Below, in pieces: positions 18,704 through 38,322 of a stretch of DNA of 64,000 nucleotides. The stretch's first letter is position 1; each line of letters begins with the position of its first letter. Source of the stretch: Escherichia coli (GTDB lineage: Bacteria; Pseudomonadota; Gammaproteobacteria; Enterobacterales; Enterobacteriaceae); the NCBI RefSeq assembly GCF_044647545.1, contig NZ_CP172818.1; one strand, written 5' to 3'. The notes under the pieces are model-generated. The model worked only from the letters and a program-made list of their open reading frames with translations. It searched no databases and was not told the DNA's origin. Both the position numbers and the translations under genes were made by a program.

Positions 18704-18724
18704 TGAGATAACGGGTCGCGACTG

Positions 18725-20101
18725 ATGAAAATTATCATTCTGGGTGCCGGCCAGGTTGGCGGCACACTGGCGGAAAACCTGGTTGGCGAGAACAACGATA
18801 TCACTGTTGTCGATACCAACGGTGAGCGTCTGCGGACCTTGCAGGATAAATTTGACCTGCGAGTCGTGCAGGGGCATGGCTCTCATCCACGCGTATTGCG
18901 GGAGGCAGGTGCCGACGACGCCGATATGCTGGTTGCTGTAACCAGTTCAGATGAAACCAATATGGTTGCCTGCCAGGTAGCCTACTCACTTTTCAACACC
19001 CCTAATCGCATCGCTCGTATCCGCTCACCAGACTACGTGCGCGATGCCGATAAGCTATTTCATTCAGATGCTGTACCGATTGATCATCTGATCGCACCAG
19101 AGCAGTTGGTTATCGATAATATTTACCGACTGATTGAGTATCCCGGCGCATTGCAGGTGGTAAACTTCGCTGAGGGTAAAGTCAGCCTGGCTGTGGTTAA
19201 AGCCTATTACGGCGGCCCGCTGATTGGTAATGCACTTTCGACCATGCGCGAACATATGCCACATATCGATACTCGTGTGGCAGCAATTTTCCGCCATGAT
19301 CGCCCCATTCGTCCGCAAGGTTCGACCATTGTTGAAGCTGGTGATGAAGTGTTCTTTATTGCCGCTTCACAGCATATCCGCGCGGTGATGAGTGAATTAC
19401 AGCGACTGGAAAAACCGTATAAGCGGATCATGCTGGTTGGTGGTGGTAATATCGGTGCAGGGCTGGCGCGTCGTCTGGAAAAAGATTACAGCGTCAAACT
19501 CATCGAACGTAATCAGCAGCGCGCTGCCGAACTGGCGGAAAAGTTGCAGAATACGATCGTCTTTTTTGGTGATGCGTCGGATCAAGAACTGCTGGCCGAA
19601 GAACATATCGATCAAGTTGATCTGTTTATTGCTGTCACCAACGATGACGAAGCCAATATCATGTCCGCCATGCTTGCCAAACGTATGGGTGCGAAAAAGG
19701 TGATGGTATTGATCCAGCGTCGCGCTTATGTGGATCTGGTTCAGGGGAGCGTGATCGATATTGCGATTTCACCGCAACAAGCAACTATTTCTGCGTTGCT
19801 TAGCCATGTGCGAAAAGCTGATATTGTTGGTGTTTCCTCACTGCGCCGCGGCGTAGCAGAAGCTATTGAAGCCGTTGCTCACGGTGATGAAAGCACCTCA
19901 CGCGTTGTCGGCAGAGTCATTGATGAAATCAAGCTACCGCCAGGAACGATTATTGGAGCGGTGGTACGTGGAAACGACGTGATGATTGCCAATGACAATC
20001 TGCGCATTGAGCAAGGCGATCACGTAATTATGTTCCTCACAGATAAAAAGTTTATTACCGACGTCGAAAGACTGTTCCAGCCAAGTCCTTTCTTCTTGTA
20101 A
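18725..20101 (+). CDS. trkA: Trk potassium uptake protein TrkA (two NAD-binding domains)
   Basis: 458 aa, two Rossmann GxGxxG repeats ([16 protein letters not shown]). Confidence 0.95.
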
Positions 20102-35165: not shown

Positions 35166-35660
<495 letters not shown>

Positions 35661-35799
35661 CTGGGGGGGCGGGCCGCGCCGCGCGGGGGCGCTTGTTCGC
35701 CCTCTCTGCACGGCTGGTGTCCGGCAGTTCGGCCCGTCTCTGGTCGGTTTTTCTGGGTGAAAGGTGGCGGCCGCGCGATTTACGCGTGCCCGCCCCCCC

Positions 35800-36204
35800 C
35801 CCCTTACTCTGGTCAGGTCTTTTGTTCTATCATGGGAGTTTGGGCTAATCGATTCCCCTGATCGGTTTAGCCGATGCGTTATGGGGGGCGATTATTGGTT
35901 ACGGCACATTCGCTGTCATTTACTGGGGGTATCGCATTCTGCGTCATAAAGAAGGATTAGGCTATGGTGATGTGAAGTTTCTCGCCGCCCCCTTGGTGCC
36001 TGGCATACATCCTATCGACTGGTTTTCCTTGCTGCCTTCATTGCTTGCCGAGCCGTAGTTCATTGGTCTGCTCATGAGAGGAAAAGAGTCATTAAAAAAT
36101 CTCCCGCTGCCGTTGTGGGAGCATCTTCTGCGCGAACTGACGGGTTTCGTTGTAGGCTGGGATAGTTATGCTGGCAGGCCGTTAATCTTTAACTTTTATT
36201 TGTG
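35800..36204 (+). pseudogene. gspO: 3' remnant of a type II secretion / type IV prepilin peptidase gene (gspO-like), frameshifted
   Basis: Translation gives PLLWSGLLFYHG, then after a stop ...IGYGTFAVIYWGYRILRHKEGLGYGDVKFLAA, then a frame change before a C-terminal PLPLWEHLL stretch; no start codon or 5' half; the 3' end overlaps the convergent bfr stop. Confidence 0.6.
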
Positions 36205-36658
36205 ATTGCAGGTAATTTTGTAGACCGATTTTACCGATGAGATCCAGCTCAGTTTCGAGCCAGTCAATATGACCTTCTTCATCGGCAAGGATCTCGATCA
36301 TCATATCACGGCTAACATAGTCATGAACGCTGTCGGCATACGCGATAGCCTCACGGAGATCCTTAGCGCCTTCCAGTTCTAATCGCAGGTCGGATTGCAG
36401 CATCTCCTCGACATCTTCACCAATCCCCAGTTTGCCTAAATCCTGTAAGTTGGGGATTCCTTCTAAAAACAAAATACGCTCGATATATTTATCAGCGTGT
36501 TTCATCTCATCGATAGATTCATGGTATTCGACGTCATTGAGACGCATCAGGCCCCAGTTTTTAAACATCCGGGCATGGAGAAAATACTGATTGATTGCGA
36601 CAAGCTCATTTCCCAATAGTTTATTGAGATAATTTATGATTTTAACATCACCTTTCAT
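36182..36658 (-). CDS. bfr: bacterioferritin
   Basis: 158 aa from [32 protein letters not shown]; ferroxidase-site residues; the track ORF has a 7-codon 5' extension. Confidence 0.9.
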
Positions 36659-36729
36659 TTTTAGTCCCTCCGCTTCCACTATTAGAGCGTAGATGGGGCT
36701 AGCGGGATGTCAAAAAATAAGCGTGGGCT

Positions 36730-36924
36730 TCAGGCAATCTCTTTAAATTCTGGCATCTGCATCAACTCGTCCTGCATCACTTCGCGCGCGGCGCGAATGC
36801 ACTTACCGCATTGATTTCCCACAGGAATAAACTTACGCAATTGTTGGAAAGATTGCGGATGAAACTGACGTACTGCCTGGCGAATTTTTTTGTCACTTAC
36901 ACCATTACACAAACAAACGTACAT
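36730..36924 (-). CDS. bfd: bacterioferritin-associated ferredoxin
   Basis: 64 aa, MYVCLCNGVSDKKIRQAV..., Cys ligands for a 2Fe-2S cluster. Confidence 0.9.
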   Translation of the reverse strand: MYVCLCNGVSDKKIRQAVRQFHPQSFQQLRKFIPVGNQCGKCIRAAREVMQDELMQMPEFKEIA

Positions 36925-36944
36925 GATTGCTCCCGTTCAAATTC

Positions 36945-36985
36945 TGCGCAAAGTGTAAATGAGAATGGTTATGATTACAATAGCA
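36945..36985 (-). promoter_or_regulatory. putative Fur box / promoter region upstream of bfd-bfr
   Basis: Minus strand reads tgtaatcataaccattctcatt, resembling the GATAATGATAATCATTATC Fur consensus; by eye only. Confidence 0.3.
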
Positions 36986-37030
36986 CAATTTTATTTGCGC
37001 CATAGTTCAGCGAGGAACGACAAAACGGGC

Positions 37031-37051
37031 AAAAAGGGCGCCGAAGCGCCC
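37031..37051 (-). terminator. intrinsic terminator downstream of tufA (end of str operon)
   Basis: Minus strand GGGCGC-TTCG-GCGCCC hairpin followed by TTTTT, about 30 nt after tufA stop. Confidence 0.75.
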
Positions 37052-37080
37052 TTTTCAATTCAAAACTAATTAACGAGTAA

Positions 37081-38322
<1,242 letters not shown>

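What the first reader, a model, noticed from the sequence alone, without database searches (positions are those of the whole stretch)
36945..36985. Fur-box-like sequence upstream of bfd
The minus strand reads tgtaatcataaccattctcatt, resembling the Fur consensus; bfd-bfr are iron-regulated in E. coli. This is a by-eye match only.
Basis: inference. Interest (0 to 1): 0.2.

Follow-up and report, generated by a model that had tools for sequence, protein, structure and literature searches.

The report
Fur repressor site on bfd promoter
The flagged sequence is a genuine, strongly scoring binding site for the iron-sensing repressor Fur. It sits on the promoter of the iron-release gene bfd and is conserved across many bacteria, but it is already documented in E. 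coli, so the finding is correct and ordinary.

Summary
The minus strand reads tgtaatcataaccattctcatt at 36979-36958, 34-55 bp upstream of the bfd start codon (36924).

I built a Fur weight matrix without a seed from 17 E. coli promoters that bind Fur in vivo; bfd was not among them. With it, 36958-36976 scores 19.8 bits. That is the best of about 128,000 positions in the window and above the median of real sites (17.5). About 3e-5 such sites are expected by chance in this intergenic region.

Two weaker sites lie 6 bp to either side, giving a 31-bp, three-site cluster (36952-36982). The cluster covers a conserved predicted promoter, TTGTAA-17 nt-TACACT.

All 80 bfd loci from other Gammaproteobacteria have a Fur box at -34 to -61. 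In a 30-genus alignment the box is the only conserved upstream block.

E. coli 042 has an identical promoter, and its published ChIP-exo Fur peak lies inside the box. Published fur deletions derepress bfd.

The most likely mechanism is that Fe2+-Fur blocks the bfd promoter when iron is plentiful. This is already known (Chen 2007; Beauchene 2015; Gao 2023).

The transcription start is predicted, not mapped.

The parts
36958..36976 (.). Core Fur box (19 bp, near-palindromic). Reads AATGAGAATGGTTATGATT on the + strand and AATCATAACCATTCTCATT on the bfd-sense strand. Lies at -52 to -34 from the bfd ATG.
   Evidence: 19.8 bits, rank 1 in the window. Chance expectation is 2.7e-5 in the intergenic region. 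The ChIP-exo peak of strain 042 maps to the equivalent of 36958-36970.
36952..36970 (.). Downstream phased Fur site, shifted 6 bp, overlapping the predicted -10 hexamer
   Evidence: 11.6 bits, second best in the window. A score of 11.57 or more was reached in only 37 of 5000 simulations.
36964..36982 (.). Upstream phased Fur site, shifted 6 bp, overlapping the predicted -35 hexamer
   Evidence: 8.5 bits. Together the three sites span 31 bp (36952-36982), the geometry Chen 2007 reports for K-12 bfd.
36975..36980 (-). Predicted -35 hexamer TTGTAA
   Evidence: Read from the sequence. TTGNNN at this position with a 17-nt spacer is conserved in 76/81 bfd loci. Columns T51, T52 and G53 are at least 90% conserved in the 30-genus alignment. 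Not found by the generic promoter scan because it matches only 8/12.
36952..36957 (-). Predicted -10 hexamer TACACT
   Evidence: TANNNT lies 17 nt after the -35 in 76/81 loci, with the middle positions varying: TACACT, TAGAAT, TATTTT, TACAAT and others. The transcription start is not mapped.
36945..36945 (-). Predicted transcription start (A, 7 nt after the -10). Inference only.
   Evidence: Inferred from hexamer spacing. No TSS was found in the accessible Cappable-seq supplement.
36930..36934 (-). Shine-Dalgarno sequence GGGAG of bfd
   Evidence: GGAG is at least 90% conserved in the alignment.
36730..36924 (-). bfd, encoding bacterioferritin-associated [2Fe-2S] ferredoxin (64 aa); the regulated gene
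   Evidence: ORF, Pfam Fer2_BFD at 58 bits, E. coli annotation.
36182..36658 (-). bfr, encoding bacterioferritin (158 aa), downstream of bfd
   Evidence: ORF, Pfam Ferritin at 129 bits, annotation.
37030..37057 (-). Intrinsic terminator of tufA. It insulates the bfd promoter from read-through.
   Evidence: 12-bp stem with 6 GC pairs followed by a T-run.

Best explanation
The sequence is the operator through which the iron-sensing repressor Fur controls bfd. A strong 19-bp Fur box (36958-36976) fills the 17-nt spacer of the bfd sigma-70 promoter. Two weaker boxes, offset by 6 bp on either side, extend the operator over the -35 and -10 hexamers, giving 31 bp in all (36952-36982).

When iron is plentiful, Fe2+-Fur dimers bind on opposite faces of this stretch and stop RNA polymerase from using the promoter. 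When iron is scarce, Fur releases the DNA and bfd is transcribed. The Bfd ferredoxin then passes electrons through the haem of bacterioferritin to release stored iron.

Shown here: the matrix score, its statistical significance, the phased cluster, the deep conservation of box and position, and the conserved promoter hexamers around it.

Shown in published work on the identical or orthologous sequence: in-vivo Fur occupancy and Fur-dependent repression.

Inferred: the transcription start, occlusion as the mode of repression, and the number of dimers bound.
For: (a) A matrix learned without a seed from 17 Fur-bound MG1655 promoters, excluding bfd, recovers the classical motif AATGATAATGATTATCAAT.

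(b) The site scores 19.8 bits, the top of the window, and beats 14 of 17 leave-one-out training sites. Phased sites at -6 and +6 bp score 11.6 and 8.5 bits.

(c) The expected number by chance is 2.7e-5 in the intergenic region, and 0 of 5000 simulations reach the score.

(d) All 80 bfd loci from Enterobacteriaceae, Erwiniaceae, Hafnia, Pseudomonas, Marinomonas, Alcanivorax and others have a best site of 8.7-21.4 bits centred -34 to -61 from the ATG. In Enterobacteriaceae it is nearly always -43. Control stretches in the same loci score -8.7 to 9.2.

(e) In the 30-genus alignment the only conserved upstream block is window 36956-36980.

(f) TTGNNN-N17-TANNNT encloses the box in 76/81 loci, against 2.8 in shuffles.

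(g) The ChIP-exo Fur peak in E. coli 042, which has the identical promoter, lies inside the box. Peaks were called at bfd in 8 of 9 strains under iron-replete conditions.

(h) bfd is derepressed in fur deletions. bfd belongs to the Fur-2 iModulon. A Fur cluster was predicted at -40 in K-12 and detected with the PRODORIC matrix in an ExPEC strain.
Against: I found no in-vitro footprint or EMSA on this sequence. Troxell 2011 lists direct binding at Salmonella bfd as unconfirmed.

The transcription start is not mapped. The generic promoter scan found nothing at its 9/12 threshold, and the Cappable-seq supplement has no entry at the predicted position.

Consensus-mismatch counts are not significant window-wide.

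In K-12-type strains the 13-bp ChIP-exo calls lie at -53 to -66, just upstream of the core box (-49 to -31), not on it.

MG1655 itself has no bfd peak in the 2023 dataset.

Part of the -35 hexamer is also part of the Fur motif, so promoter conservation and box conservation are not fully independent.
Confidence: 0.92

Rival explanations
1. The resemblance is chance. This is an AT-rich promoter spacer that happens to look like a Fur box and has no regulatory role.
For: Consensus-mismatch searches give about as many hits as shuffles do: 1 against 1.3, and 4 against 2.15. Another site in the window also has 5 mismatches to the 19-mer.
Against: The matrix score has a per-position P of 1e-7 and 0 of 5000 simulations reach it. 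The site ranks first in the window by 8 bits. It is conserved at the same position in all 80 loci examined. The ChIP-exo peak falls on the identical sequence in strain 042.
Confidence: 0.02
2. The conserved block is conserved only because it is the bfd core promoter (-35, spacer, -10). Fur regulation of bfd is indirect or works through a different site.
For: The conserved block coincides with the predicted promoter. K-12-type ChIP-exo calls sit 4-17 bp upstream of the core box. A second peak lies inside bfd.
Against: Promoter spacers are not normally conserved in sequence. Here the spacer is the most conserved part and matches the Fur matrix in every lineage, even where the -10 differs. No alternative site above 6 bits exists upstream of bfd. 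The 042 peak lies on the box.
Confidence: 0.04
3. The site is bound mainly by another protein that favours AT-rich DNA (H-NS, IHF or Fis) or by a Fur paralogue such as Zur, rather than by Fur.
For: The sequence is AT-rich. Published work has Fur acting against H-NS at the related ftnA gene, as cited.
Against: The matrix was trained only on Fur ChIP-exo targets, and the score is typical of the strongest Fur operators such as ryhB and sodA. The in-vivo occupancy is anti-Fur ChIP, and expression changes in fur deletions. I did not scan with Zur, H-NS or IHF matrices.
Confidence: 0.02

Closest known systems
Fur operator of E. coli 042 bfd (ChIP-exo peak P119, Gao et al. 2023, PMC10164565)
   Same: The gene order is the same (tufA, bfd, bfr, no chiA). 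The promoter sequence is identical from -60 to -25, including all three phased boxes. The Fur peak at -46 to -34 lies inside the box, and bfd is derepressed in the fur deletion.
   Different: The window's tufA-bfd spacer upstream of about -85 differs by substitutions and an indel. The operator itself is unchanged.
Predicted Fur site cluster of E. coli K-12 bfd (Chen et al. 2007, PMC2189734: 20.2 bits total, 3 sites, 31 bp, -40)
   Same: It is the orthologous position, with the same three-site, 6-bp-phased, 31-bp geometry and the same TTGNAA-17-TANNNT promoter frame.
   Different: The K-12 allele (AATGAAAATAGTTCTTATT) scores 12.8 bits in my matrix against 19.8 here. K-12 has chiA inserted between tufA and bfd, and homology to the window begins only at the -35.
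Classical Fur-repressed promoters with the box inside the core promoter (ryhB, sodA, fhuA, cirA, fepA-fes)
   Same: The same 19-bp motif and comparable scores (leave-one-out 16.8-22.6 bits), in promoters of genes induced by iron starvation.
   Different: Those genes mostly encode iron uptake functions or a small RNA. bfd encodes an iron-mobilising ferredoxin. Several of those operators have in-vitro footprints, and I found none for bfd.
Fur box upstream of bfd in Pseudomonas (e.g. P. pseudoalcaligenes, PMC6922518)
   Same: A Fur box lies upstream of bfd, bfd rises 16-fold in a fur mutant, and bfr is regulated reciprocally. My scan finds 14.7-17.6-bit boxes at -52 to -61 in the Pseudomonas loci.
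   Different: The box overlaps the -35 (TTGACA or TTGATA) instead of filling the spacer from position 5 of the hexamer, and it lies further from the ATG. bfd and bfr are not always adjacent.

Membership tests
Fe2+-Fur operator (Fur box) of Enterobacteria | The sequence matches the Fur binding motif as well as experimentally bound sites do | tested here: met
   19.8 bits against a leave-one-out training range of 4.4-22.6 (median 17.5); rank 1 of about 128,000 window positions; P=9.7e-8 per position.
Fe2+-Fur operator (Fur box) of Enterobacteria | Overlapping sites phased by 6 bp, allowing several dimers to bind (cluster architecture of Chen 2007 and Lavrrar & McIntosh) | tested here: met
   Sites at 36952, 36958 and 36964 score 11.6, 19.8 and 8.5 bits and span 31 bp. 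This matches the '3 sites, 31 bp' reported for K-12 bfd.
Fe2+-Fur operator (Fur box) of Enterobacteria | The operator overlaps the core promoter of the regulated gene | tested here: met
   The box fills the spacer of the predicted TTGTAA-17-TACACT promoter. This arrangement is conserved in 76/81 loci against 2.8 by chance. Caveats: the promoter is predicted (8/12 match, missed), and no mapped TSS was found.
Fe2+-Fur operator (Fur box) of Enterobacteria | The site is conserved upstream of orthologous genes | tested here: met
   80 of 80 loci have a box at -34 to -61. It is the only conserved upstream block in the 30-genus alignment.
Fe2+-Fur operator (Fur box) of Enterobacteria | Fur occupies the site in vivo | not testable with these tools
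   Literature only. The ChIP-exo peak in strain 042 lies on the identical sequence. Peaks were called at bfd in 8 of 9 strains. ChIP-seq also shows binding in K-12.
Fe2+-Fur operator (Fur box) of Enterobacteria | The downstream gene is derepressed by fur deletion or iron limitation | not testable with these tools
   Literature only. log2FC of 2.3-7.3 in fur deletions; bfd-lacZ fusion repressed by Fur; Salmonella 5.9-fold; induction in iron-restricted egg white.
Fe2+-Fur operator (Fur box) of Enterobacteria | Metal-dependent binding of purified Fur to this DNA (EMSA or DNase I footprint) | not testable with these tools
   I found no published footprint for bfd. Troxell 2011 lists binding as not confirmed for Salmonella bfd.

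The most novel reading that the evidence does not exclude
E. coli carries two diverged bfd promoter alleles. One is linked to absence of chiA and has a 19.8-bit core box; it is the window's type and occurs in 2254 of 5426 genomes. The other is linked to presence of chiA and has a 12.8-bit box; it is the K-12 type and occurs in 2595 genomes. The 7-bit difference might set different iron thresholds or tightness of bfd repression, and so of iron release from bacterioferritin, in different lineages. The published log2FC values (for example 042 5.5, W3110 7.3, if the columns follow the strain order of Dataset 4) show no obvious trend, so any effect would be subtle.
Probability: 0.2. Interest if true: 0.2.

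Novelty: already known. Interest (0 to 1): 0.08.

Why it matters
The site couples release of stored iron from bacterioferritin to the cell's iron status, which is a standard part of bacterial iron homeostasis. Confirming it here adds nothing new biologically. It also shows that a weight matrix plus a phylogenetic footprint, and not a consensus match, is what separates this real site from look-alikes such as the one at 18724-18742. The Bfr-Bfd interaction is being pursued as an antibacterial target in Pseudomonas, so knowing that its regulation is conserved has mild practical value.

Tried and rejected
(1) Classical 19-mer consensus with up to 3 mismatches: no hit in the window. The site has 5 mismatches.

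(2) The published motifs TGAnAATnATTcTCA and TGATAATnATTATCA with mismatches: they hit the site but are not enriched over shuffles window-wide. I rejected this as a test in favour of a matrix.

(3) Generic sigma-70 scan: 0 promoters in 36600-37200 at its 9/12 threshold. The promoter was inferred from conservation instead.

(4) A mapped TSS: not in the accessible Cappable-seq supplement, and literature searches found none.

(5) Seo et al. 2014 and Panina et al. 2001 are not held. The Chen 2007 and Beauchene 2015 supplements are not held.

(6) The fecI promoter fetch missed the promoter and was left out of training.

(7) Organism: the protein search suggested Citrobacter (98% Bfd identity). DNA comparison shows the window is E. 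coli: 97% to HH97 across tufA-stop to bfr-end, 82-90% to Citrobacter and other genera, and 100% to E. coli strains at 50-53 kb.

(8) The second ChIP-exo peak inside bfd has no matrix support, so I did not adopt it as part of the operator.

Full report
**What is there.** On the minus strand the window encodes tufA (stop at 37081). It is followed by a strong intrinsic terminator (37057-37030) and a 156-bp intergenic region. Next come a 64-aa ORF starting at 36924 and a 158-aa ORF at 36658-36182. Pfam identifies the two ORFs as a BFD-like [2Fe-2S] ferredoxin and a ferritin-like protein. E. coli genomes annotate the same genes as bfd and bfr. The window is E. coli. It is 100% identical to several strains at 50-53 kb. 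From the tufA stop to the bfr end it is 97% identical to strain HH97, against 82-90% for Citrobacter and other genera.

**Is the match more than chance?** By consensus counting it is not clearly so. The site has 5 mismatches to the classical 19-mer and ties with one other site in the window. The published ChIP-exo motif TGAnAATnATTcTCA hits it with 2 mismatches, but 1.3 such hits are expected in 64 kb. The 7-1-7 motif gives 4 hits against 2.15 expected.

I therefore built a weight matrix that does not rely on memory. I took ChIP-exo Fur peaks of MG1655 from Gao et al. 2023 (bfd is not in that list). I fetched 17 intergenic regions of classic targets and ran an unseeded Gibbs sampler on them. 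It recovered AATGATAATGATTATCAAT, the classical Fur motif.

Scanning the window on both strands puts 36958-36976 first at 19.8 bits. The next non-overlapping site scores 10.8. Leave-one-out scores of the training sites range from 4.4 to 22.6 with a median of 17.5, and only ryhB and sodA score higher than this site. The exact per-position probability is 9.7e-8. That gives 2.7e-5 expected sites in the intergenic region and 0.012 in the window, and none of 5000 Markov simulations reached the score. The mismatches to the consensus fall at low-information positions.

**Anatomy.** Two further sites lie exactly 6 bp to either side: 36952-36970 at 11.6 bits and 36964-36982 at 8.5 bits. Together the three span 31 bp. 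Chen et al. 2007 describe the same geometry for K-12 bfd: 3 sites, 31 bp, at -40.

The core box fills the 17-nt spacer between TTGTAA (36980-36975) and TACACT (36957-36952). This 8/12 promoter is below the threshold of the generic scan, but conservation supports it. A TTGNNN-N17-TANNNT frame encloses the box in 76 of 81 bfd loci, against 2.8 in shuffles. The middle of the -10 varies freely (TACACT, TAGAAT, TATTTT, TACAAT and others) while T1, A2 and T6 are kept. One caveat is that the -35 partly overlaps the Fur motif, so the two signals are not fully independent. The transcription start (about 36945) is inferred. I found no mapped TSS.

**Comparative evidence.** A search with the Bfd protein returned 80 loci from Enterobacteriaceae, Erwiniaceae, Hafnia, Pseudomonas, Marinomonas, Alcanivorax and others. 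Every one has its best Fur-matrix site (8.7-21.4 bits) centred 34-61 nt upstream of the bfd ATG. In Enterobacteriaceae it is almost always at -43. Control stretches from the same loci score -8.7 to 9.2. In an alignment of 30 genera, sequence upstream of the -35 is unconserved. The only conserved block is window 36956-36980, followed by the Shine-Dalgarno sequence and the ATG.

**Published experimental evidence.**
- Gao et al. 2023 called a ChIP-exo Fur peak at bfd under iron-replete conditions in 8 of 9 E. coli strains. They measured log2 fold changes of 2.3-7.3 for bfd in fur deletions.
- Strain 042 has the same chiA-less gene order as the window and an identical promoter from -60 to -25. Its peak (3816258-3816270) maps to -46 to -34, entirely inside the box at -52 to -34.
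- In K-12-type strains (W3110, CFT073) the 13-bp calls lie at -53 to -66. They abut the upstream edge of a weaker cluster whose core scores 12.8 bits at -49 to -31.
- Beauchene et al. 2015 report Fur ChIP-seq binding and Fur-dependent repression of a bfd promoter-lacZ fusion.
- Huja et al. 2014 detected the box with the PRODORIC matrix.
- Salmonella bfd rises 5.9-fold in a fur mutant, although direct binding was listed as unconfirmed in 2011.
- Pseudomonas shows the same pattern.

**Mechanism.** The best-supported reading is classical Fur repression by promoter occlusion. With sufficient iron, Fe2+-Fur dimers occupy the three phased sites and cover -35, spacer and -10. Under iron limitation Fur leaves and bfd is transcribed. 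Bfd then reduces the bacterioferritin core through its haem to release Fe2+; this function is taken.

The matrix match, the cluster, the conservation and the promoter frame are shown here. Occupancy and regulation are shown in the literature for the identical or orthologous sequence. The TSS, the occlusion step and the stoichiometry are inferred. The rivals are a chance match, conservation due to the promoter alone, and binding by another AT-favouring protein. Together I give them less than 10%.

**Comparison with known systems and novelty.** The site meets every sequence-level criterion of an enterobacterial Fur operator that I could test. The in-vivo criteria are met in the literature. The in-vitro footprint could not be tested with these tools, and I found none published. 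The site is the same element already described for E. coli bfd, so it is already known. Interest is low (0.08).

**Side observations.** E. coli has two diverged bfd promoter alleles. The window type has no chiA upstream, a 19.8-bit box, and occurs in 2254 of 5426 genomes. The K-12 type has chiA inserted, a 12.8-bit box, and occurs in 2595 genomes. Homology between the two begins only at the -35. Whether the 7-bit difference changes regulation is untested, and it is the only mildly novel angle.

Noticed in passing
window 36925-37080 compared with L002 (K-12 W3110) and L098 (CFT073): E. coli is split between two arrangements. In one, tufA-bfd are adjacent with a strong Fur box (2254 of 5426 genomes). 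In the other, chiA is inserted between tufA and bfd and the promoter allele is diverged and weaker (2595 genomes). Homology between the alleles starts only at the -35 hexamer, and about 577 genomes match neither 71-bp probe.
   Followed up: partly
window 18724-18742 (also 18721-18739): This is the only other site in the window with 5 mismatches to the classical Fur 19-mer (CAGAATGATAATTTTCATC). It scores only about 9 bits in the matrix and overlaps the ATG of a 458-aa ORF beginning MKIIIL, which from memory looks like trkA. It is most likely a coding coincidence. Gao 2023 does list a ChIP-exo peak assigned to trkA-rsmB-fmt-def in strain KO11, but I did not compare its position with this site.
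   Followed up: partly
equivalent of window ~36817-36829 (inside bfd, +95 to +107 from the ATG); L099 418-430: Gao 2023 lists a second Fur ChIP-exo peak labelled 'bfr, intergenic' in strains 042, W and Sakai, about 141-149 bp from the bfd peak. In strain 042 it falls inside the bfd coding sequence. No Fur-matrix match above 0 bits exists there. It could be a ChIP-exo border artefact or a non-canonical site near an internal bfr promoter.
   Followed up: partly
window ~36995-37030 (between the tufA terminator and the bfd promoter): This short stretch differs by substitutions and indels from every complete E. coli genome searched; the best full-length identity is 96.2%, and many strains differ in length by 27 bp. 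The promoter just downstream and distant parts of the window are 100% identical to some strains. It appears to be a small hypervariable spacer.
   Followed up: no
window 35500-36180: The region between bfr and the rpsJ leader has no convincing ORF. E. coli annotations place a frameshifted, truncated prepilin peptidase pseudogene here. The window matches chiA-less strains at only 92.5% over 80% of the stretch, so this side of bfr is also variable.
   Followed up: no
L018-L019 (Citrobacter amalonaticus) compared with window 36733-36924: The window's Bfd protein is 98% identical to that of Citrobacter amalonaticus, although the DNA is only 87-90% identical. The K-12 Bfd is a different protein accession from the one in the chiA-less strains 042 and HH97. 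The chiA-less E. coli allele therefore looks like the ancestral enterobacterial form, and the K-12 allele looks like the derived one.
   Followed up: no
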